Notes: generated from the sequence alone by a model not told the origin. 64,000 nt of DNA from an uncultured Gammaproteobacteria bacterium (GCA_964408485.1 CAYOZJ010000005.1:13203-77202), one strand, 5' to 3'. Counted from the first letter of the stretch, positions 20,238-34,154 are shown. Translations and numbers: made by a program.

Positions 20238-20309
20238 CGTCCCCGGGCAGAATTGAACTGCCATTGGGCCCTTAGGACGGGTCTGTTCTATCCGTTAAAC
20301 TACAGGGAC
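20238..20309 (-). tRNA. tRNA-Arg (anticodon CCU)
   Basis: Manual fold: acceptor GTCCCTG/CGGGGAC, D arm GTTT/GAAC, anticodon loop GTCCTAA (U33, A37), T arm GGCAG-TTCAATT-CTGCC, 72 nt. One A-C mismatch in the anticodon stem. Confidence 0.7.
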
Positions 20310-20323
20310 ACGTGTGCGCTGAG

Positions 20324-20395
20324 TCGGGGTGCTGGGAATTGAACCCAGTGTCTCTTAGTCCCGAACCAAGCGTGATACCGATTCACTACACCCCG
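20324..20395 (-). tRNA. tRNA-Pro (anticodon CGG)
   Basis: Manual fold: acceptor CGGGGTG/CACCCCG, D arm GTGA/TCAC, anticodon stem CTTGG/CTAAG, loop TTCGGGA (U33, G37), T arm CTGGG-TTCAATT-CCCAG, 72 nt. Confidence 0.8.
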
Positions 20396-20461
20396 AGTCT
20401 TTGTATTTTACTTCTATTGTGACTAAAATGAAATGAGTTACTTAAGTCACTTAAGATACTT

Positions 20462-21019
20462 ATGAGTTTTCCTAAATACAAATATCTTCTTACCTATCGG
20501 TATAGCGAGATCATTGTTGACTTAAATGTACAGTTTTGTGAGAAATTCCTGGCTGGATTTGATTATAGACGTACTCGAGAACAAATGATTCAAGCCGGAA
20601 GATCGGGCAAGCAAAATATTATTGAAGGCGTGAGCGATGCTCGCACATCAACACATGTCGAATTGAAACTACTGGGAGTTGCTAATGGGTCTTTGGAAGA
20701 ATTACTGGCAGATTATGAGGACTTTTTGAGACAAAGAAAACTAGAAATATGGGCGAAGGATGACCAAAGAATTCTTGTTTTTCGAAGAAAAGCATTTGAT
20801 CTAAGTAACCTAAGAAACTTAAGTACCTTAGGTGAGCTTATAGAAAAGCCAATTTTGCCAGAAAATCCAGAGCAAGCTACCAATTTTCTTCTGACTCTTC
20901 TTCACCAAGCAACCTATCTTCTATCAAGACAAATCAAAGCTGCTGAGGAAAAATTTATTAAAAACGGTGGCTATACTGAAAACCTTTTGAAGAAAAGACT
21001 GAATGCAAGAAAAAAGTAA
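20462..21019 (+). CDS. Four-helix-bundle-like protein (PF05635-like motif)
   Basis: NIIEGVSDARTSTHVELKLLGVANGSLEEL resembles the IaEG...A.GSlaEL core of the four-helix-bundle family. Confidence 0.45.
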   Translation: MSFPKYKYLLTYRYSEIIVDLNVQFCEKFLAGFDYRRTREQMIQAGRSGKQNIIEGVSDARTSTHVELKLLGVANGSLEELLADYEDFLRQRKLEIWAKDDQRILVFRRKAFDLSNLRNLSTLGELIEKPILPENPEQATNFLLTLLHQATYLLSRQIKAAEEKFIKNGGYTENLLKKRLNARKK

Positions 21020-21041
21020 ATTCCCAGCACTCCGACACAGA

Positions 21042-22229
21042 TTATGCAGTTTGTTGTTTCTCGCGAAGCATCCTAATTGCCATATCCAAAACCATTCCTG
21101 CTGCATGATAATTAAGAAGTCTTGCTTTATGCAGGGTAAATATTTCTTCTGGCGTTGCCATATAAATTTTTCCATCTTGCGTTAATTTCTCAATAACATC
21201 ATCTGGTAGAGGTGGAAATTCTATTGCCAAATTTTTCGAATTAAGTCGATTTGCATCTGCATAAGGCAATGGCTCAGGTCTTACCTCATCTGCTGTTGCT
21301 TCCGGAGTAATAAGAAGACTTGGTTCGATAAGTAAATCGGTAAATTGCTTTCCTTCTGGTACAGTTGCTGCCAAGACATTACTCAGTGGATCATCTGTTA
21401 TCCCTCCTGCTGCAATTGTATTAAGCTTACTGACTGATGTTTGAACTGGTGTTCTGACAAGGGCATGCATATCAGAGTGTGCTCCTGGCTCTTGCTCTAA
21501 GGCAATAGCAATACGTCCTTGACTATCACGGAGGAGTGCAACAAAACCACTTACGGCAATCTCTTTAATACCATTAGGAGTCCAAATACTAACAAGTTCG
21601 GGCTTCTGATCAATAATTGGCTGCCACCATTCCAATACAACCTTGTCTTGACCATTTTCATCTTTTGCATGGCTTCCATCTACATTAAGTTGATATTTCG
21701 TAACGAGTAACCCTTTTACATCAAATGCACTGCCCTTCTCGCCACTAGATTGAATCTCGCCAACTATCTTTTCTCCGTTTTGATTATAAGAAACATATAA
21801 CGCGTGAGGAATATTTCTACCTCCCTTTCCACTATCTTCAACATACCTAATAAGTCCAGGGTCTATTTGATTGTCTACTTGTATTTTTGCATCTTCTGGT
21901 AATGTATCCGTGCTAATGGGACTTACTGAAAATGCTCGCTCCCATCCCCTTTGGGGTACATCGGTTTCCTGAATAACCATTTCAGGAAGTGCTTTCATAC
22001 GCTCCCCAAGCCATCCATTAAGCTCTGGTGTTCCTTCTTTTTGCAAAACATCGCGCATATATGGCTGGACAAATTCTTCACTAAATCTTTTAAGCGCCTC
22101 GGTTTTCCTTTGCATCTCAACGGATATAACTGGTTCTGACTTCATTGACATAACCGGTGCGGGCATAATATCGCCTCTTTGTTGTAATGGCTTTATTCCA
22201 AATTGTTGAGGTCCTTTTCCTTCTACCAT
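21042..22229 (-). CDS. Hypothetical protein (395 aa)
   Basis: Long intact ORF; no family recognised. Confidence 0.5.
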   Translation of the reverse strand: MVEGKGPQQFGIKPLQQRGDIMPAPVMSMKSEPVISVEMQRKTEALKRFSEEFVQPYMRDVLQKEGTPELNGWLGERMKALPEMVIQETDVPQRGWERAFSVSPISTDTLPEDAKIQVDNQIDPGLIRYVEDSGKGGRNIPHALYVSYNQNGEKIVGEIQSSGEKGSAFDVKGLLVTKYQLNVDGSHAKDENGQDKVVLEWWQPIIDQKPELVSIWTPNGIKEIAVSGFVALLRDSQGRIAIALEQEPGAHSDMHALVRTPVQTSVSKLNTIAAGGITDDPLSNVLAATVPEGKQFTDLLIEPSLLITPEATADEVRPEPLPYADANRLNSKNLAIEFPPLPDDVIEKLTQDGKIYMATPEEIFTLHKARLLNYHAAGMVLDMAIRMLREKQQTA

Positions 22230-22276: not shown

Positions 22277-23119
22277 ATGATAGAACAACCTCACCCCAAC
22301 CCTCTCCTAAAAGGAGAGGGAGATCAAAGTGAAGAATTTATTTATATGGAGCCAAAGCTTACTAAAGACGAGAAAAAAGCGCTTCGCCAAGAGGAATGGA
22401 GAGAAAAAGCAGATAAGGAAAGAAAAAACAGGGTTTACAAAATAATTGCAATTTGGTCTTTGGGTGGCATGCTTCTTATTCTGGCTCTTTGGGCATTAGT
22501 TGCTTTTTCTACTGGAACAACAACATCCTCGTCGGGACCAACACTCACCGCGCCCAAAGTAACTTCGAGTGATTTTCAATCCAATCCTAACCCTTCGACA
22601 AGCTCAGGGAAGATTGTCACCCTTATTGAATATGCAGATTTTCAATGTCCAGCGTGTAAATCATACTATCCAATTGTTAAGCAAATTCAGACAATGTATG
22701 GGACGAGATTAAATTTTGTGTATAGATTTTTCCCACTTAAAAGTGTCCATCAAAATGCTGTTAATAGCGCAAAAGCAGCATATGCAGCAGGCTTGCAAAA
22801 GGATGCATCGAATGGTGCGTCCCAAGGAAAATTCTGGGAAATGCATGATAGATTATTTGAAACGCAGGATAGTTGGGCAACCGTTACTAATCCTGAGTCA
22901 ATCTTTCTTGGCTATGCAAAAGATTTAGGACTTAATAATGATGAATTTAAGAAAGATTATGAGGCACAAGCAACAGCTGATTTTATTGACCAATCGTATA
23001 GCAATGATACTGCAATGGGATTAAATAGCACACCAACATTTTTTGTTAATAACAAGCAAATTGATAATCCACAAAGCTTAGATGACTTTAAAAAGTTGAT
23101 TGATGAAGCAATAAAATAG
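22277..23119 (+). CDS. DsbA-family thiol:disulfide oxidoreductase (membrane-anchored thioredoxin fold)
   Basis: N-terminal TM helix and a CPAC active site (EYADFQCPACKSY). ATG at 22343 is an alternative start. The palindrome ccctctcctaaaaggagaggg (22300-22320) lies in the 5' region and a 22-bp direct repeat is at 22591 and 23121. Confidence 0.75.
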   Translation: MIEQPHPNPLLKGEGDQSEEFIYMEPKLTKDEKKALRQEEWREKADKERKNRVYKIIAIWSLGGMLLILALWALVAFSTGTTTSSSGPTLTAPKVTSSDFQSNPNPSTSSGKIVTLIEYADFQCPACKSYYPIVKQIQTMYGTRLNFVYRFFPLKSVHQNAVNSAKAAYAAGLQKDASNGASQGKFWEMHDRLFETQDSWATVTNPESIFLGYAKDLGLNNDEFKKDYEAQATADFIDQSYSNDTAMGLNSTPTFFVNNKQIDNPQSLDDFKKLIDEAIK

Positions 23120-23120
23120 A

Positions 23121-23175
23121 CCCTTCGACAAGCTCAGGGATAATTTTTTCCTGAGCGAACGAAGTGAGTCGAAGG
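23121..23175. repeat. Palindromic repeat element (A family) immediately after the dsbA-like stop; possible terminator
   Basis: cccttcgacaagctcaggga...tcctgagcgaacgaagtgagtcgaagg followed by atttttat. Confidence 0.6.
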
Positions 23176-23183
23176 ATTTTTAT

Positions 23184-23711
23184 ATGGATGACTATTCGTT
23201 GAAAAAGTTTTTTACCTCTCCTTTTCCGATAAAAGTACTCCCCTACTTATTACTTATCTTTGCTGCTTTAGGGTTTTTGGATGCAGGATATCTTACTATT
23301 CAACACTACCAACATGCTATTCCTCCATGCACTGTTGGAGGCTGTGAGACAGTCTTAACAAGCAGTTTTGCCACAGTTGCAGGTATTCCCCTCGCACTTT
23401 TGGGAGTTGGGTTTTATCTAGCCATATTGGTTCTAACAGGAATTTTTATAAGCTTTCGTCATTCTGGGGACGAACAACGTGAGGACTCCAGAATCTCAAA
23501 CAACCCAGATTCTGGACGCACTACGTTTGCCAGAATGACAGTTACTATTCTCTTTACTCTCTGTTCTCTCGGCCTCTTGGTTGGCCTGGGACTTATTGCT
23601 CTTCAAGCATTTATTCTCCATGCATGGTGTTATTATTGTCTATTTTCCGAGCTGATTGATTTTCTACTGTTTGACACAGCATGGTGGCTGTGGAATAATA
23701 ATCGCGCATGA
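23184..23711 (+). CDS. Vitamin K epoxide reductase (VKOR) family protein
   Basis: GYLTIQHY...CTVGGCETVLTSSFATVAGIPLALLG and a C-terminal CYYC. Carries an in-frame palindrome ccagaatctcaaacaacccagattctgg at 23488-23515. Confidence 0.8.
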   Translation: MDDYSLKKFFTSPFPIKVLPYLLLIFAALGFLDAGYLTIQHYQHAIPPCTVGGCETVLTSSFATVAGIPLALLGVGFYLAILVLTGIFISFRHSGDEQREDSRISNNPDSGRTTFARMTVTILFTLCSLGLLVGLGLIALQAFILHAWCYYCLFSELIDFLLFDTAWWLWNNNRA

Positions 23712-23931: not shown

Positions 23932-24396
23932 TTATTTTAATTCTTCTTCTGAGTACACCTGAGACATGTCCATTTTTGCCCAAGGGAAAATTTCATCATC
24001 CTTAAAAAGAAGTCCTTTTTCTTTTTGCGCATGCTCTGCAGATTCAGATGCATGAATTAAGTTATATTGCTGACTCATACCAAAGTCTCCCCGAATTGTC
24101 CCAGGCTGTGCATCTCGCGCTTTGGTAACACCAATCATTGTGCGTACTGTAGTAGCAGCATCTTTTCCTTCCCACACCATAGCAACAACTGGGTATGACT
24201 GCATATAGTCACGAAGAGACGGAAAAAATGGCTTATCTTTGTGATGCACATACCACTCTTCAAGAAGATCTGAGCTAAGGTTAACCATCTTTAAAGCGGT
24301 TAAGTGAAGACCTTTTCTTTCAAATCTGTGTATGACCTCGCCAATGAGTGCTCTTTGTACTCCGTCTGGCTTAACGAGTACTACTGTTTGTTCCAT
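23932..24396 (-). CDS. ndk: Nucleoside diphosphate kinase
   Basis: MEQTVVLVKPDGVQRALIGEVIHRFE...NLIHASES; start taken at the internal ATG (24396) of listed ORF 23932-24492. Confidence 0.9.
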   Translation of the reverse strand: MEQTVVLVKPDGVQRALIGEVIHRFERKGLHLTALKMVNLSSDLLEEWYVHHKDKPFFPSLRDYMQSYPVVAMVWEGKDAATTVRTMIGVTKARDAQPGTIRGDFGMSQQYNLIHASESAEHAQKEKGLLFKDDEIFPWAKMDMSQVYSEEELK

Positions 24397-24409
24397 ACAA
24401 TCTATTTTT

Positions 24410-24922
24410 TCATGTTTGGTCTTTATTTGCAAGCGGCTTAAACCCTCTTCCTCCTTTTTGCGCCTGCCTTCTGGCATTTTGTCGACGTACATCTTGTAAG
24501 TCTTCCTGCATACCTGCTTTTACTGCTGCGTCTACGTGGTTTTGATAAACAACAGGACTTTTCCAACTTTCCTCGGTGCCTTTCCTCTGTCGTATAGAAG
24601 CAGAAGGAACACTGGGATATCTTTTTGTCACCTCAGGCAAATGAGCACGTAAACTACTCTCTGATACACCCAATGCACTTGCAATTTGACTATTTGTTTT
24701 AAAAGAATGCAATTGATCTGCAATAAGCGGGTAAGATCTCTCCCAATCTATGGCTATAGATGCCTGAGGAACGTCAGGGTGTATCATTCTCACTTCCGGC
24801 ACGTGACGCTTCACATTGCTTTTGGAAATTCCTAACTCATCTGCAATTTGTTGCCTTGTTTTATTAGAACGTAACCCCTGAGCTATGATTTGATATCTCT
24901 TATTTCGCTCTGAAAGTCTCAT
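24410..24922 (-). CDS. Small DNA-binding protein with two tandem HTH repeats (paralog 5 of the array)
   Basis: QIADELGISKSNVKRHVPEV and QIASALGVSESSLRAHLPEV repeats. Confidence 0.5.
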   Translation of the reverse strand: MRLSERNKRYQIIAQGLRSNKTRQQIADELGISKSNVKRHVPEVRMIHPDVPQASIAIDWERSYPLIADQLHSFKTNSQIASALGVSESSLRAHLPEVTKRYPSVPSASIRQRKGTEESWKSPVVYQNHVDAAVKAGMQEDLQDVRRQNARRQAQKGGRGFKPLANKDQT

Positions 24923-24930
24923 TTAATGAT

Positions 24931-25326
24931 TTATCTTTGCCTCTCTTGCCTTTGTTGTCTATTTTCCACTTCTCGTCTTGTTGCGGCGGCTCTTTTTGTT
25001 TGCAACCCTTTCTGTGCTGCTGCAACACGTTGCTCATAGGTTTGAGACTGCCTTATTTTATCTCCAAACTTCTTTTGCTCCTCTTCGCTCATATTTTTCC
25101 ACCATTCCCTGGTTTGCTTACCAACATGAGCTCTCTGTTCCTCTGTCCATATGCCCTTTGGTGCATTTGGAAGTCGTTTTTCGCGAATAAGTCTCCTATA
25201 CCGATCCTCTGTTGCGCTGCTTGAACGATTGATTTCCCTAGCGATTTTCGCTACTGGCCACCCCATCCCTTTTAGACGAATCACCTCACTATCTAGAAAT
25301 GCTTCTTCTTCATCTGTTCGTTGCAT
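24931..25326 (-). CDS. Small HTH protein with a basic C-terminal tail (paralog 4)
   Basis: WPVAKIAREINRSSSATEDRYRRL HTH, a W-containing motif (REWWKNMSEEEQKK) and a KR-rich tail. ATG at 25326 avoids overlap with the upstream gene. Confidence 0.5.
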   Translation of the reverse strand: MQRTDEEEAFLDSEVIRLKGMGWPVAKIAREINRSSSATEDRYRRLIREKRLPNAPKGIWTEEQRAHVGKQTREWWKNMSEEEQKKFGDKIRQSQTYEQRVAAAQKGLQTKRAAATRREVENRQQRQERQR

Positions 25327-25327
25327 A

Positions 25328-25831
25328 TTATTTCCTTCTTGGCCTCCCTTTTGCTTCATGTCCTTTTTTAGCCGCTGCAGCTCTATTTTCCCGAGTTCGA
25401 CGAGTCTGAGCAGCTCTTATCGCATCCTTTGCTGCTCCTCTTTCCTTATCGGTCATAACATCCCATCTTTTTGCTGCCAGATCTGAAGCTTGATCTCTGT
25501 GCTCTTGTGTTCGTGGGTATGATTTACCTTCAGGGGCAGAAAGAGTACCTTGCTCTCTCAGTTTTCTAACTCTATATTTCACATTATGAATAGGCATTCC
25601 TCCAAGATCGTCGCCAATTTCCTTAAGCGTCCTTCCTGCCACAACTCCCTCCCGGATAATCCTTTCTTCTTCAGGACTAATATCTAGAGGCTTCATTAAG
25701 CCTTGTGTACGACTTTGGTATTGTTGAGGAGATAAATTTCTCCAAGAATCATTGGCTCTTTTTCTATTTCGATTTGAAACAGCAGTTGGCTCTTGAGCAC
25801 TACTCAAACTTTCATTTTTTTTATTTGCCAT
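25328..25831 (-). CDS. Small HTH protein with a basic C-terminal tail (paralog 3)
   Basis: RTLKEIGDDLGGMPIHNVKYRVRKL HTH; KRWDVMTDKERGAAKD motif. Confidence 0.5.
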   Translation of the reverse strand: MANKKNESLSSAQEPTAVSNRNRKRANDSWRNLSPQQYQSRTQGLMKPLDISPEEERIIREGVVAGRTLKEIGDDLGGMPIHNVKYRVRKLREQGTLSAPEGKSYPRTQEHRDQASDLAAKRWDVMTDKERGAAKDAIRAAQTRRTRENRAAAAKKGHEAKGRPRRK

Positions 25832-25874
25832 AAGAGACTTAGAAAGATTCTATCAGTTTTTTATCAAAAATATA

Positions 25875-26237
25875 TTACATTTCAGGAGGTTTTCTTTTTC
25901 CTTTCCTCGATATTCTCCCACCTATTCCACCACTCCGTCTTCTATTTGTATGGTATGCTTCATCACCTTTTGCAGCTCGCCTTTTCATCCCGCCAACTGC
26001 TGCATCTCGAAATTCAGAAGACTCTGGTGCCCAAAATCTACTCATGGCATTACTTACTCGCTCGCTTTTATTAGGAAGTAAATCAGGTTCTGTATTTCGA
26101 ATTGAGGCAATACGCCGTATAACTGTGGAGACACTTACATGTAATTCTGAGGCAATTTCTGGATCTGTCTTACCCTCAACGAGAATAAGTCGCTTAATCT
26201 TTTCATCAATATCAGCATCAAGTTTTTTGCCACCCAT
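25875..26237 (-). CDS. Small HTH protein with a basic C-terminal tail (paralog 2)
   Basis: DPEIASELHVSVSTVIRRI HTH; SRFWAPESSEF motif. Confidence 0.5.
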   Translation of the reverse strand: MGGKKLDADIDEKIKRLILVEGKTDPEIASELHVSVSTVIRRIASIRNTEPDLLPNKSERVSNAMSRFWAPESSEFRDAAVGGMKRRAAKGDEAYHTNRRRSGGIGGRISRKGKRKPPEM

Positions 26238-26251
26238 ACTGAACCTGTAAT

Positions 26252-26662
26252 TTAGTTAGTAACCTGACCTTGTCTTCGTTTTTGTTGTTTTACTTCTCTT
26301 GCTTTTGCAATATTGGCTCTTAGTTTTGCAGCTTCATCCTCTCTTTCCATTCTCCTCTTCCCTCCAGCTATTCTGTTATCACGCACAGACTCTAATTTTG
26401 ATGCTTCCTGAAGTCCTCTTTGCCAATTCTCCCGCACATCGGGATCTGACCAAGCTCTACTAAGAGAACGCGATCGACGCTTTTCCCACGGAAGTATACC
26501 TTCTACACCACCTTGCTTCATACGCTCTATTCTATACGCAACAGTGTCTGGGTGACGCCTAACTTCTCTACCAATATCTTCAGTACTAAAACCCTGATCA
26601 AGAAGTTCAAGAATTCTCTGATTTATTGGATCATTCGGATCCTCGGCTCTTACTTGAGGCAT
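26252..26662 (-). CDS. Small HTH protein with a basic C-terminal tail (paralog 1)
   Basis: FSTEDIGREVRRHPDTVAYRIERM HTH; SRAWSDPDVRENW motif; starts 2 nt after the M16 peptidase stop. Confidence 0.5.
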   Translation of the reverse strand: MPQVRAEDPNDPINQRILELLDQGFSTEDIGREVRRHPDTVAYRIERMKQGGVEGILPWEKRRSRSLSRAWSDPDVRENWQRGLQEASKLESVRDNRIAGGKRRMEREDEAAKLRANIAKAREVKQQKRRQGQVTN

Positions 26663-26664
26663 AG

Positions 26665-27936
26665 TTATGCTAATTTAAGAAGTGATTCAAATTGTGCTGT
26701 ATCTTTAAAATCTCCAATAATTGCTAAATTAAGTGTCTCTTCAACTAAGTATTTTTTGGCAACTCGCTCTAAATCAGCAATAGTCACTGCATCAATTTTC
26801 TGCATATTCTCTTCTGGATTTTCCAACCTCTTCTCAAGTAACTCTTGATGAGCATAATAGTCTGCAACAGATCGTGAATCTTCTAAATCAAGGACAAAGT
26901 GACCTTTAATATATTCTTTTGCTTTAATAAGCTCTTCTTCCTTAATATTTCCAGGCTGTTTTATTTTTTCAAGCTCTTCTAAAATAACTTTTATTGCACT
27001 TTCTACTCTATTTTTATCTACTCCCGCTGCGGTAACAAACGTCCCACAGTCTGTATAATTATCAGAGCTTGTTCTTACATAATAGGCTAATCCTCGCTTC
27101 TCTCTAACCTCGTTAAAAAGGCGTGAACTCATTCCTCCACCTAAAATTGCTGCTAATACTTCTAGTGCGTCTTCATCTGGATGGTCAAGCCCAACAGTCC
27201 TAACCCCAAGAGCCAAATGGACTTGTTCTGTTTTTTTATTTTTAATAAAAACAGCTGGTGTTTTTTGTGCGTCTACTACCTTACTCGCTTTTATAGTGCT
27301 AAATTTACTCATTGGGCCAAAGTATTTACTTACCAATTCTTCGGCAGTTGTATCGATACCACCTGCAACAACAACAGTCATATTATCCGGACTATACAGG
27401 CTCTGCATATATGTGACAAAATCCTCCCGCGTGATTGAGCGAATAACTTCTTTTGTCCCTGCTGTGTCCCATCCCATTGGGGTATCACCATACAAAAGTC
27501 TTTCGTAGATGTCTCCTAAATTTCGCATTGGCGTATCTTCATACATATTAATTTCCTCAATAATTACTCCTTTTTCTTTTTCTATCTCTGGCTTTGGAAG
27601 CAAAGAATCAGTAAGCATATCAGACAAAAGATCGAGACATGTCTCCACATGAGTGGATTGTGCTTTTATGTAATACCCAGTCGTCTCTTTACTCGTAAAT
27701 GCGTTAAATTCTCCACCAATTCCATCGATTAATCCTGCAATATCCATTGCAGATGGACGCTTTGTTGTGCCCTTGAAAGCCATGTGCTCGAGGAAATGGG
27801 AAATACCACTATTTTTTACTGTTTCGTATCTACTTCCTGCACCAACCATCACGAGGACTGTTGCGGACTCAAAGGAAGGCATTGGGATAATGAGTACCCG
27901 AAGACCATTTGGTAAAACTGTTTTTCTGTAATCCAT
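26665..27936 (-). CDS. M16-family (pitrilysin/insulinase-like) zinc peptidase
   Basis: HxxEH zinc-binding motif (SHFLEHMAFKGT) and a two-domain length of 423 aa. Confidence 0.85.
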   Translation of the reverse strand: MDYRKTVLPNGLRVLIIPMPSFESATVLVMVGAGSRYETVKNSGISHFLEHMAFKGTTKRPSAMDIAGLIDGIGGEFNAFTSKETTGYYIKAQSTHVETCLDLLSDMLTDSLLPKPEIEKEKGVIIEEINMYEDTPMRNLGDIYERLLYGDTPMGWDTAGTKEVIRSITREDFVTYMQSLYSPDNMTVVVAGGIDTTAEELVSKYFGPMSKFSTIKASKVVDAQKTPAVFIKNKKTEQVHLALGVRTVGLDHPDEDALEVLAAILGGGMSSRLFNEVREKRGLAYYVRTSSDNYTDCGTFVTAAGVDKNRVESAIKVILEELEKIKQPGNIKEEELIKAKEYIKGHFVLDLEDSRSVADYYAHQELLEKRLENPEENMQKIDAVTIADLERVAKKYLVEETLNLAIIGDFKDTAQFESLLKLA

Positions 27937-28680
27937 ACGTTCTAGACGATTGAAAATAGAATATGGAAGATAGGTTTAGAAGATGGAAAAATTGAGGATG
28001 GATTAGGACTTTCTATATTCTATTCTCAACCTTCTACCCCTATTTTCTACTATCAACCTTCTATTTCTTTCCATCTCAAAGTATATCACTGGAAAATTGG
28101 GTGGACAAGAGGGAAAAAAGGAAAAATTATTTCTTTTCCAGCTTATCCAGCTCTTCTCTTATAACGCTGGCTTCCAATTCAAGCCTTCGTGCAGCTGCAG
28201 GGTCATCAACCAATGAAGCACGCTCTCTTTTTGTGAGCCCATGCAAATTGCATAGATTCTAAGATAGATTGTGGAGAAATTCCCTTGCCTTGAGATCTTC
28301 TTCTAAAAGAGCTAAGACCTTCTCTATATCTTTCTCGAGGATCTTTATCTCGTTGTGGTCCAGAATTGGTAGATGTTCTCATGTCTGTATTATACTACAG
28401 GATTTCAAGTAGATCAATTGTATTTTGACTTATAGTAGGTATTACTGATAAAATCAGCTTGTATGAAAAAATGTCCTGCATTTATTGACGCTCTCCCTGG
28501 AGTGGGTGACGTTGCATGCGGTGAGAAACGTCAAGAAGGAATTTACAATATGAGAAGACGCTGTCCAATTAAAAATCAAACTACCGAAAATTGTGAAATA
28601 GAAGGCCCTCTTGCTCCTTGGTTTGTGCGCAAATGGGAACATACCAGAGATGCTACAAAAAGAAGATAAAAACTTAATGT

Positions 28681-33626: not shown

Positions 33627-34154
33627 ATGGCTACTGACGAAGCAAGGCAGTACGAACAAATCAATGAAAACTGGGATAGCTTAATGCGTACTGCATTAGG
33701 AAAAGGATTAAGCCCTCAAGATGCTCAGGACGCTGTTCAAAATGCATATCTAACTGTTCTCTCCAAACCCAAATATAGATCAACGGCGCATGTAGGCACA
33801 TTGGTTGCTGTTACCAGATCCAGAGCAGTAGATCTTCAGAGAAGAAATGCTCCAGGAAAAAGACGAGCACAACCAATAGATAGCTTACCAATACATGCGC
33901 AGGAAATATTACTCAGAGATCATCAAACAGAAAGCCCCGAAGCTGTAGCTCTGAGACGAGAAGAGTATGCAGCAATTAGTGATGGATTAAGTAAAACCAA
34001 ACCAAATAACAGAAGAGCGTTTCTTCTTCATGTCAGGGAAGGTATGCCATATAGCGAAATTGCAGATACAACTGAAACAAGCACCAGTAACGTAAAGACA
34101 CAAATTCATAGAGCTCGAGGAAGTATTAAAAAATCTGTTAGCCAACTCGGGTAG
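33627..34154 (+). CDS. ECF-type sigma-70 family RNA polymerase sigma factor
   Basis: Region 2 (AQDAVQNAYLTVLSKPKYRS...TRSRAVDLQRR) and region 4 HTH (MPYSEIADTTETSTSNVKTQIHRARGSI). Confidence 0.8.
   Translation: MATDEARQYEQINENWDSLMRTALGKGLSPQDAQDAVQNAYLTVLSKPKYRSTAHVGTLVAVTRSRAVDLQRRNAPGKRRAQPIDSLPIHAQEILLRDHQTESPEAVALRREEYAAISDGLSKTKPNNRRAFLLHVREGMPYSEIADTTETSTSNVKTQIHRARGSIKKSVSQLG

What the first reader, a model, noticed from the sequence alone, without database searches (positions are those of the whole stretch)
24410..27936. Operon of an M16 peptidase followed by five paralogous small HTH proteins and ndk
Five consecutive, tightly packed minus-strand genes (gaps of 1-40 nt, one abutting by 2 nt) encode 120-170-aa proteins. 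Each has a sigma-70-region-4/LuxR-like helix-turn-helix (one gene has two copies) followed by a conserved Trp-containing motif (SRAWSDPDVRENW, SRFWAPESSEF, KRWDVMTDKERG, REWWKNMSEEEQKK) and an Arg/Lys/Gln-rich tail. The first gene starts 2 nt after the M16 peptidase stop and the last ends 14 nt before the ndk start. Such a lineage-specific tandem expansion of one DNA-binding family inside a housekeeping operon is not a described system. It may be a rapidly diversifying regulator or nucleoid-protein family, or substrates or partners of the co-transcribed protease.
Basis: seen in the sequence. Interest (0 to 1): 0.65.

Follow-up and report, generated by a model that had tools for sequence, protein, structure and literature searches.

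The report
Five small HTH paralogs inserted between M16 and ndk
A Levybacteria-like (CPR) genome carries five diverged tandem copies of a gene for a small, very basic helix-turn-helix DNA-binding protein, inserted between two housekeeping genes that are direct neighbours in its relatives; it is a real lineage-specific gene family of an ordinary kind, with a C-terminal tail that matches nothing known.

Summary
Five tightly packed minus-strand genes (A 26252-26662, B 25875-26237, C 25328-25831, D 24931-25326, E 24410-24922) lie between an M16 peptidase gene with an intact HxxEH motif and ndk. All code in the annotated frame with host-like codon usage. Each product has an N-terminal three-helix HTH (E has two), a Pro-containing linker, and a helical basic tail with one invariant Trp (pI 10.2-10.6). 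Shuffle tests link all five transitively.

New here: in 28 of 34 relatives with ndk downstream on the same strand, ndk lies within 300 nt of M16. So the 2.25-kb cassette is an insertion. Six other lineages carry longer intervals there, with unrelated ORFs in five, so the junction looks permissive. No copy of the family was found in 160 related loci, viral contigs or three protein searches. An exhaustive profile search matched only the HTH unit, mainly in metagenomic proteins with 3-14 tandem copies. The tail is an orphan; HMG-box, NUMOD3 and decayed-HTH readings were tested and rejected.

Most likely these are locally duplicated DNA-binding regulators or nucleoid-type proteins co-transcribed with M16 and ndk. 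A protease-substrate link has no support. Modest interest.

The parts
26665..27936 (-). M16 (pitrilysin-type) zinc peptidase gene, 423 aa, HxxEH motif present. It is the upstream neighbour and the probable first gene of the transcription unit.
   Evidence: Pfam Peptidase_M16 5.8e-38 and Peptidase_M16_C 1.3e-45. It is 60-67% identical to Levyibacteriota MAG orthologues.
26252..26662 (-). Paralog A, 136 aa: HTH (about aa 10-57), linker GILPWEK, W-tail (SRAWSDPDVRENW...), basic C-terminus.
   Evidence: HTH_23 and HTH_28 score above the Pfam cut-off. It is 37% identical over about 60-75 aa to the repeat unit of poly-HTH protein P0007. The identical sequence occurs in two Logan assemblies.
25875..26237 (-). 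Paralog B, 120 aa: HTH, W-tail (SRFWAPESSEF), Gly/Arg/Lys-rich end.
   Evidence: Sub-threshold HTH_11/HTH_23/Sigma70_r4_2 hits. HTH z 9.5 to E1 and tail z 3.2 to A.
25328..25831 (-). Paralog C, 167 aa: 45-aa polar N-terminal extension, HTH (aa about 50-100), W-tail (AAKRWDVMTDKERG), basic end.
   Evidence: HTH_20 4e-3. HTH z 7.4 to E1. Tail z 6.5 to D, and 35% identity over 77 aa.
24931..25326 (-). Paralog D, 131 aa (alternative start at 25359 gives 142 aa): HTH, disordered linker 54-60, three tail helices (62-78, 81-94, 97-130).
   Evidence: AlphaFold2 with the 5-sequence alignment, pLDDT 78.8. The HTH superposes on RcsB/NarL over about 44 aa at rmsd about 2.1-2.3. phrog_323 1e-5. HMG_box scores only 15.6 bits against a cut-off of 25.4.
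24410..24922 (-). Paralog E, 170 aa: two HTH units (aa about 1-52 and 53-104) from an internal duplication, then the W-tail (EESWKSPVVYQNH).
   Evidence: GerE 1.2e-8 and Sigma70_r4_2 4e-7, each with two stretches; NUMOD1 3.9e-4 on the second unit. E1-E2 z 21.
23932..24396 (-). ndk (nucleoside diphosphate kinase), 154 aa, starting 13 nt after the stop of E. It is the last gene of the unit; the next gene (VKOR, 23184-23711) is convergent.
   Evidence: Pfam NDK 1.3e-50. The start MEQTVVLVKPDG is shared with most relatives listed. VKOR and DsbA lie on the plus strand.
27943..28063 (-). Candidate operator region upstream of M16. It holds two tandem copies (28013-28036, 28040-28063) and one inverted copy (27943-27968) of a 24-nt motif, TAGAAGGTTGAGAATAGAATATAG. 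Its membership of the system is inferred only.
   Evidence: Found by the repeat finder as I2 and D9. The motif is unique in the window and expected 0 times by chance. The RNA fold is no better than shuffles, z -1.0.

Best explanation
The five genes are diverged paralogs made by local tandem duplication of one gene for a small, strongly basic DNA-binding protein. In E the duplication also happened inside the gene. The cassette sits in the short spacer between the M16 peptidase gene and ndk of a Levybacteria-like (CPR/Patescibacteria) genome, and it is most likely transcribed with those two genes.

Each protein has three parts:
1. A three-helix HTH of the sigma-70-region-4 / LuxR-GerE structural class. 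Its unit (...ILELLxxGxSxxEIAxxLGVSxxTVxxRIxxMRxxG..P) is the same unit that elsewhere occurs as 3-14 head-to-tail copies in single metagenomic polypeptides.
2. A short Pro-containing flexible linker.
3. A helical Arg/Lys/Gln-rich tail of 64-79 aa with one invariant Trp.

Proposed mechanism. The HTH reads a DNA site. The basic tail adds non-specific backbone contacts and/or mediates self- or hetero-association. The set of six HTH units therefore acts as transcription regulators or nucleoid-type DNA-organising proteins, possibly binding adjacent sites together as the poly-HTH proteins presumably do.

What is shown: gene structure, paralogy, the HTH fold class, the insertion relative to relatives, and host-like codon usage. 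What is inferred: DNA binding, co-transcription, the role of the tail, and any target.
For: - Gene structure and spacing.
- HTH assignment: (GerE 1fse 8.8e-5).
- Paralogy beyond chance. Adjacent genes C and D have the most similar tails, as expected from tandem duplication.
- Insertion: 28 of 34 relatives with ndk downstream on the same strand have it within 300 nt of M16.
- No family member in 160 related loci or in the rest of the window.
- Native-like codon usage and a frame-specific coding signal.
- No flanking repeats, integrase or transposase.
- The HTH unit is shared with poly-HTH array proteins. The exhaustive profile search gave 1617 hits at E <= 1e-3; the listed non-self hits have 2-14 matched stretches and a median unit spacing of 57 aa.
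- High pI and basic C-termini.
- No minus-strand terminator-like or promoter-like site inside the cassette.
Against: - There is no direct evidence of DNA binding, of expression, or of co-transcription.
- Several pairwise similarities are not significant on their own. D has no Pfam HTH hit.
- No orthologues exist in any collection searched. Purifying selection therefore cannot be shown, and the family could be evolving neutrally.
- The tail has no detectable homologue or fold match, so its role is a guess.
- The AlphaFold model rests on a 5-sequence alignment (pTM 0.39).
Confidence: 0.6

Rival explanations
1. The cassette is a remnant or cargo of a mobile element or phage. The proteins would be the DNA-binding N-terminal modules of transposases (IS630/IS30-type HTH), small-terminase or excisionase-like HTH proteins, or phage regulators, left behind after insertion at a permissive junction.
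For: - Weak hits of A to the IS630 transposase N-terminus (2.5e-5, 23.9 bits against a cut-off of 100) and to HTH_23/28/29/38.
- E hits phage small-terminase HTH families and phrog_664; D hits phrog_323 'D5-like regulator' at 1e-5.
- The M16-ndk junction also received unrelated insertions in other lineages.
Against: - No integrase, transposase catalytic domain or flanking direct or inverted repeats.
- Codon usage and GC3 are host-like.
- No match in 50,697 phage genomes for D or in IMG/VR for A and D.
- No significant match to predicted viral structures.
- All hits are to the generic HTH only and lie far below family cut-offs.
Confidence: 0.12
2. The five ORFs are the broken pieces of one former poly-HTH gene, like the metagenomic proteins with up to 12-14 HTH units, and are now pseudogene fragments.
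For: The best database matches are poly-HTH proteins. E still has two units. The genes are collinear and almost abutting.
Against: - In poly-HTH proteins the units recur every 57 aa or so. Here each HTH is followed by a 64-79-aa tail that is shared among the five (C-D z 6.5, A-E 4.6) and scores <= 0.2 bits against HTH-unit HMMs.
- Every ORF has its own ATG and stop, with no internal stops, and shows a frame-specific coding signal.
- None of the listed poly-HTH hits contains the tail.
Confidence: 0.04
3. The small proteins are functionally tied to the co-transcribed M16 peptidase, as substrates, precursors or regulators of it.
For: Gene A starts 2 nt after the M16 stop, and the genes share strand and tight packing. 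Some M16 peptidases process small-protein precursors encoded nearby (general knowledge, not tested here).
Against: - The M16 gene is orthologous (60-67% identity) to that of relatives that lack the cassette and have ndk directly downstream.
- Unrelated genes occupy the same junction in other lineages.
- Proteins of 120-170 aa with a folded HTH do not look like peptide precursors.
Confidence: 0.05
4. The proteins bind RNA or the ribosome rather than DNA. The basic helical tails would act like the extensions of ribosomal proteins.
For: The tail-only profile gives its (non-significant) best PDB scores to eS24 and uL3 tails (E 0.2-1). The pI is very high.
Against: Those scores are at chance level. 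The only significant domain is a DNA-type HTH.
Confidence: 0.04

Closest known systems
Stand-alone LuxR/GerE-type and sigma-70 region-4-type HTH proteins (e.g. GerE, PDB 1fse; DNA-binding domains of NarL and RcsB)
   Same: The HTH has the same structural class. The family profile hits GerE at 8.8e-5 and NarL/VraR/RcsB-type domains. Foldseek superposes the D model on RcsB/NarL over about 44 aa at rmsd about 2.1-2.3 and about 30% identity. Like these, the proteins are small and have no sensor domain.
   Different: The model shows three helices rather than the four-helix LuxR effector domain. Only E exceeds the GerE cut-off. There is no receiver or ligand domain. A basic helical tail of 64-79 aa with an invariant Trp follows, which those families lack.
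Unnamed metagenomic poly-HTH array proteins (P0007, P0008, P0010, P0014, P0034 and others; listed hits have 2-14 matched stretches)
   Same: The HTH unit is the same, including the post-helix 'RIxxMRxxG(V)x(I)P' extension. A is 37% identical to the best-matching P0007 unit, and these proteins are the top hits of the exhaustive search. E, with two units, is a minimal array.
   Different: Those proteins are single polypeptides with about a 57-aa period and short linkers, and several share a different C-terminal domain (TKxAS.EQV..M...YGVD). None has the W-tail. Here the units are spread over five genes. The function of the poly-HTH proteins is itself unknown.
HMG-box (HMGB1 box A), helices II-III
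   Same: There is a local motif resemblance in D and C: REWWKNMSEEEQKKFGDK against SERWKTMSAKEKGKFEDM. BLASTP gives 34% identity over 35 aa. The whole-family profile scores E about 3e-3 against PDB HMGB1 chains.
   Different: Pfam HMG_box scores 15.6 bits against a cut-off of 25.4, and only for D. The tail-only profile gives E 0.2-0.8. hhalign probability is 18% over 20 columns. There is no helix I equivalent, and no HMG-box structure appears among the Foldseek matches. This is not a member.
N-terminal DNA-binding modules of IS630/Tc1-mariner and IS30 transposases (HTH_23/HTH_28/HTH_29/HTH_38)
   Same: These are the best Pfam hits for A, and NCBIfam transpos_IS630 positions 3-51 match A. They share the pattern of an HTH followed by a basic Pro/Gly-containing linker.
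   Different: There is no DDE catalytic domain, no second (RED-type) HTH and no terminal inverted repeats. The score is 24 bits against a cut-off of 100.

Membership tests
LuxR/GerE-type HTH (Pfam PF00196) | Score at or above the Pfam gathering threshold (23.5 bits) | tested here: inconclusive
   E scores 34.8 bits over two stretches and so meets the threshold. B scores 14.3 bits. A, C and D are not listed. The family profile hits GerE 1fse at E 8.8e-5.
LuxR/GerE-type HTH (Pfam PF00196) | Four-helix effector domain with the HTH as helices 2-3 and a C-terminal dimerisation helix | tested here: not met
   The AlphaFold model of D has three helices (5-20, 25-31, 36-49) followed by a disordered linker. 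Only about 44 residues superpose on RcsB/NarL.
Sigma-70 region 4 (PF04545/PF08281) | Score above the gathering threshold, and presence of regions 2/3 for a true sigma factor | tested here: not met
   Sigma70_r4_2 scores 30.0 bits in E (cut-off 25.7) but 18.3 in B, and is absent for A, C and D. No region 2 is present in any of them. A genuine ECF sigma factor lies elsewhere in the window, at 33627-34154.
HMG box (PF00505) | Pfam score at or above 25.4 bits and a three-helix L-shaped fold including helix I | tested here: not met
   D scores 15.6 bits and the other four tails have no HMG_box hit. hhalign probability is 18%. There are no HMG-box structures among the Foldseek hits.
NUMOD1/NUMOD3 DNA-binding modules of homing endonucleases | Match to the NUMOD models, a short repeated motif in the tail, and an associated nuclease domain | tested here: not met
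   NUMOD1 matches only E's second HTH, at 21.0 bits against a cut-off of 22.8. NUMOD3 gives no hit even at E <= 10 on the isolated tails. The tails show no internal periodicity (z -1.1 to 0.8). No nuclease domain is present.
IS630-family transposase (NCBIfam NF033545) | Full-length match (cut-off 100 bits) with a DDE catalytic domain | tested here: not met
   A scores 23.9 bits over model positions 3-51 of 299.
Poly-HTH array proteins (unnamed; metagenomic) | Three or more head-to-tail HTH units of this type in one polypeptide, with a period of about 57 aa | tested here: not met
   A-D have one unit each and E has two. The units are homologous, but the architecture differs.
Anti-phage defence system components (PADLOC) | Significant match to any defence-system model | tested here: not met
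   The only hits are weak ones (E >= 1e-3) to the HTH of Csa3/CARF proteins.

The most novel reading that the evidence does not exclude
The five genes encode a 'split' poly-HTH array. The six HTH units, each with its own recognition helix, would assemble side by side on DNA through their Trp-containing helical tails. They would then read a long, asymmetric composite site, for example the triple 24-nt motif upstream of M16. That would be the same job done elsewhere by single polypeptides with 3-14 tandem HTH units. It would make this a modular, duplication-driven DNA-reading system with a previously unseen oligomerisation and DNA-contact tail domain.
Probability: 0.08. Interest if true: 0.6.

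Novelty: new member of a known kind. Interest (0 to 1): 0.3.

Why it matters
If they are functional, these proteins add a lineage-specific set of DNA-binding factors to a CPR bacterium, a group usually described as having very few regulators. They would also show gene-family birth by tandem duplication inside a conserved housekeeping gene pair. The orphan Trp-containing basic tail and the link to uncharacterised poly-HTH array proteins are the only parts that could lead somewhere new. Otherwise this is a cluster of hypothetical HTH proteins of a common superfamily, confined as far as can be seen to one genome.

Tried and rejected
- **HMG-box tail.** This was suggested by REWWKNMSEEEQKKF against HMGB1 SERWKTMSAKEKGKF. 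It was rejected on four counts: Pfam 15.6 bits for D only, tail-only PDB profile E 0.2-0.8, hhalign probability 18%, and no HMG structure in Foldseek.
- **NUMOD3-like 16-aa repeats in the tails** (my own recollection of 'W.DPE.R' motifs in homing-endonuclease DNA-binding modules). There is no NUMOD3 hit at E <= 10 and no internal periodicity against shuffles.
- **Tail as a decayed second HTH unit**, suggested by a BLAST alignment of A to P0007. HTH-unit HMMs score <= 0.2 bits on all tails.
- **Degraded poly-HTH gene.** Rejected on architecture and coding signal.
- **Phage or mobile origin.** No matches for D in phage genomes or for A and D in IMG/VR. PHROGs gives only generic HTH hits, BFVD gives nothing significant, and there are no flanking repeats.
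- **Defence system.** PADLOC is negative.
- **Orthologue hunt.** The word-index searches with A, with the five-way alignment and with the tails found only the window's own proteins. Scans of species-representative genomes and JGI metagenomes using M16 as anchor found no relative closer than 67% M16 identity, and none has the cassette.
- **5' UTR hairpin upstream of M16.** The fold is no better than shuffles.
- **Small ORFs in the argS-M16 gap.** No Pfam hit, and no match in 162 loci.


Full report
**What is there.** The region 23932-27936 carries seven collinear minus-strand genes.
- The first is an M16 peptidase (26665-27936, 423 aa), with both M16 domains and the HFLEHMAF zinc motif.
- Five small genes follow: A 26252-26662 (136 aa), B 25875-26237 (120 aa), C 25328-25831 (167 aa), D 24931-25326 (131 aa; an upstream ATG at 25359 would give 142 aa and overlap C) and E 24410-24922 (170 aa).
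- The last is ndk (23932-24396).

The ndk start is fixed by comparison: nearly all relatives listed begin at or within a few residues of MEQTVVLVKPDG or a close variant. The spacers are 2, 14, 43, 1, 8 and 13 nt. The genes downstream of ndk (VKOR, DsbA) are convergent. A 745-nt gap separates M16 from argS upstream. The consensus scan finds no promoter-like or terminator-like site on the minus strand inside the cassette. One transcription unit from M16 to ndk is therefore a reasonable inference, but it is not shown.

The organism is a Levybacteria-like member of the Patescibacteria/CPR. The M16 protein is 60-67% identical to proteins from Levyibacteriota MAGs.

**Are the five genes real and related?** All five have a positive codon-usage log-likelihood in the annotated frame and negative values in the other two frames. 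Their GC3 (0.23-0.35) falls around the host mean of 0.29. Two independent read-set assemblies contain identical M16-A-B(-C) segments.

Pfam puts A and E above the gathering thresholds of several HTH families: A for HTH_23 and HTH_28; E for GerE, Sigma70_r4_2, HTH_5 and HTH_24, each with two stretches. B and C are sub-threshold and D is unmatched.

Plain pairwise BLAST scores are weak, at 25-36 bits. Local alignments compared with 500 shuffles nevertheless link all five:
- HTH parts: E1-E2 z 21, B-E1 9.5, C-E1 7.4, B-E2 5.3, A-D 4.8, A-C 3.7.
- Tails: C-D z 6.5, A-E 4.6, A-B 3.2.

The architecture is collinear in all five. It runs from the HTH, through a linker ending in Pro, to a helix carrying the single invariant Trp, two further helices, and a Lys/Arg/Gln-rich end. 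The pI is 10.2-10.6. An AlphaFold2 model of D built with the five-sequence alignment reaches pLDDT 78.8. It has helices 5-20, 25-31 and 36-49 (the HTH), a disordered stretch at 54-60, and tail helices 62-78, 81-94 and 97-130. Foldseek matches only the HTH, to RcsB/NarL-type domains, over about 44 residues at rmsd about 2.1-2.3 and about 30% identity.

**The cassette is an insertion.** I used M16 as an anchor to fetch 80 loci from species-representative genomes and 80 from metagenomes. Among the loci with ndk downstream on the same strand, 28 of 34 have it within 300 nt of the M16 stop, and often within 1-100 nt. In the window the interval is 2.27 kb and is filled by A-E.

Six other lineages also have longer intervals. 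In five of them the interval holds unrelated ORFs of at least 70 aa:
- L010: three large ORFs, not characterised here
- L013: several unrelated ORFs, not characterised here
- L083: a 312-aa minus-strand ORF
- L011: a 159-aa minus-strand ORF
- L053: ORFs of 72-177 aa
- L115: only a 75-aa ORF in a 366-nt interval

The junction therefore tolerates insertions repeatedly. This argues against a special functional tie between the cassette and M16 or ndk. No repeats, integrase or transposase flank the cassette.

**Distribution.** An HMM of the five proteins finds nothing else in the window or in the 160 related loci. Word-index searches of 5.8 billion proteins with A, with the five-way alignment and with the tails alone return only the window's own proteins.

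The exhaustive HMMER scan of 1.84 billion representatives with the five-way profile gives 1617 hits at E <= 1e-3. In most of the listed non-self hits the best-matching stretch covers only profile positions of about 5-60, the HTH unit, and most are proteins with 3-14 matched copies of it. Examples such as P0007 (740 aa, 12 units) show a unit NDEKILELLEKGLSQKEVGEQLGVSPDAISKRIKKMRERGVDIPERK. A aligns with the best-matching P0007 unit at 37% identity, including the post-helix RIERMKQGGVEGILP segment. Across the 150 listed proteins the median unit spacing is 57 aa, and none contains the W-tail. Pfam has no dedicated family for these arrays; they hit dozens of generic HTH models.

So the HTH unit belongs to a widespread but unnamed unit type that tends to be arrayed. 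The combination of HTH and W-tail is so far confined to this genome.

**The tail.** I tested three ideas.
1. HMG box. The family profile touches HMGB1 box A at E about 3e-3, and D resembles helices II-III locally. Against that, Pfam gives 15.6 bits against a cut-off of 25.4, and only for D. The tail-only profile gives E 0.2-0.8. hhalign probability is 18%. No HMG structure appears in Foldseek. Rejected.
2. NUMOD3-like short repeats. There is no Pfam hit even at E <= 10 and no internal periodicity. Rejected.
3. A decayed HTH unit. HTH-unit HMMs score <= 0.2 bits on every tail. Rejected.

The tail remains an orphan: helical, basic and Trp-containing.

**Other origins.** Searches of phage genomes (D), IMG/VR contigs (A and D), PHROGs, BFVD structures (D model) and PADLOC give nothing beyond generic HTH similarity. 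Codon usage is native. A degraded poly-HTH gene is excluded by the HTH-plus-tail repeat unit, by the separate starts and stops in frames 1, 2, 1, 0, 1, and by the coding signal.

**Interpretation.** The best-supported reading is a locally duplicated family of small, basic HTH DNA-binding proteins, either regulators or nucleoid-type proteins. They were inserted at a permissive spot in a conserved M16-ndk pair and are probably expressed with it.
- Shown: the genes, the paralogy, the HTH class, the insertion, and the absence from relatives.
- Inferred: DNA binding, co-transcription, and a role of the tail in backbone contacts or oligomerisation.

A candidate target lies just upstream of M16. It consists of two tandem copies and one inverted copy of a 24-nt motif that is unique in the window. 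As RNA it does not fold better than shuffles. Any link to A-E is speculation.

**Verdict.** Its 'lineage-specific tandem expansion inside a housekeeping gene pair' is confirmed and is now backed by synteny. Its protease-substrate suggestion has no support, and its 'rapid diversification' suggestion cannot be tested. In kind, this is a new member of the very large class of small HTH DNA-binding proteins, with an orphan tail. The interest is modest. The most novel reading still open is that the five genes act as a split version of the poly-HTH arrays.

Noticed in passing
window 27943-28063: A 24-nt motif, TAGAAGGTTGAGAATAGAATATAG, occurs twice in tandem on the minus strand (28013-28036, 28040-28063). 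An inverted copy lies at 27943-27968, ending 7 nt before the M16 start codon. The motif is unique in the window and expected 0 times by chance. It could be an operator. The RNA fold is not significant (z -1.0).
   Followed up: partly
window 27937-28680: A 745-nt gap between argS and M16 is unusually long for this compact genome. It has a promoter-like TTGATC-17-TATAAT at 28417-28389 and only short ORFs (28206-28382 minus, 58 aa, basic; 28463-28669 plus, 68 aa with 5 Cys). These ORFs have no Pfam hit and no match in 162 related loci.
   Followed up: partly
proteins P0007, P0008, P0010, P0014, P0034, P0063, P0072 (metagenomic): These proteins are made of 4-12 head-to-tail copies of one HTH unit (other hits such as P0044 have up to 14), with a median period of 57 aa over all listed hits. 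Several end in a shared C-terminal domain (…TKxAS.EQV..M...YGVD…LDE.ER). No dedicated Pfam family exists and the sources give them no name. The class appears uncharacterised.
   Followed up: partly
loci L010 7272-11286, L013 2328-7641, L083 6299-7331, L011 7269-7892: Other Levybacteria-like lineages carry unrelated insertions at the same M16-ndk junction. L010 has three large ORFs (387, 423 and 228 aa); L013 has several ORFs of 97-432 aa; L083 and L011 each have a single reverse-strand ORF. None was run against a family library. The junction looks like a recurrent insertion site.
   Followed up: partly
window 33627-34154 (+): An ECF-type sigma-70 factor (regions 2 and 4). It was the only other ORF in the window with even marginal similarity (E 0.05) to the HTH profile. 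It is not a family member.
   Followed up: yes
window 20238-22229: Two adjacent tRNA genes (20238-20309, 20324-20395, minus strand) lie next to a 185-aa ORF with weak similarity to 23S-rRNA-intervening-sequence proteins (20462-21019). Next to that is a 395-aa ORF (21042-22229, minus strand) with no Pfam match.
   Followed up: no
window 22277-23711 (+): A DsbA-like thioredoxin (22277-23119) and a VKOR (23184-23711) form a disulfide-bond formation pair, convergent with ndk.
   Followed up: no
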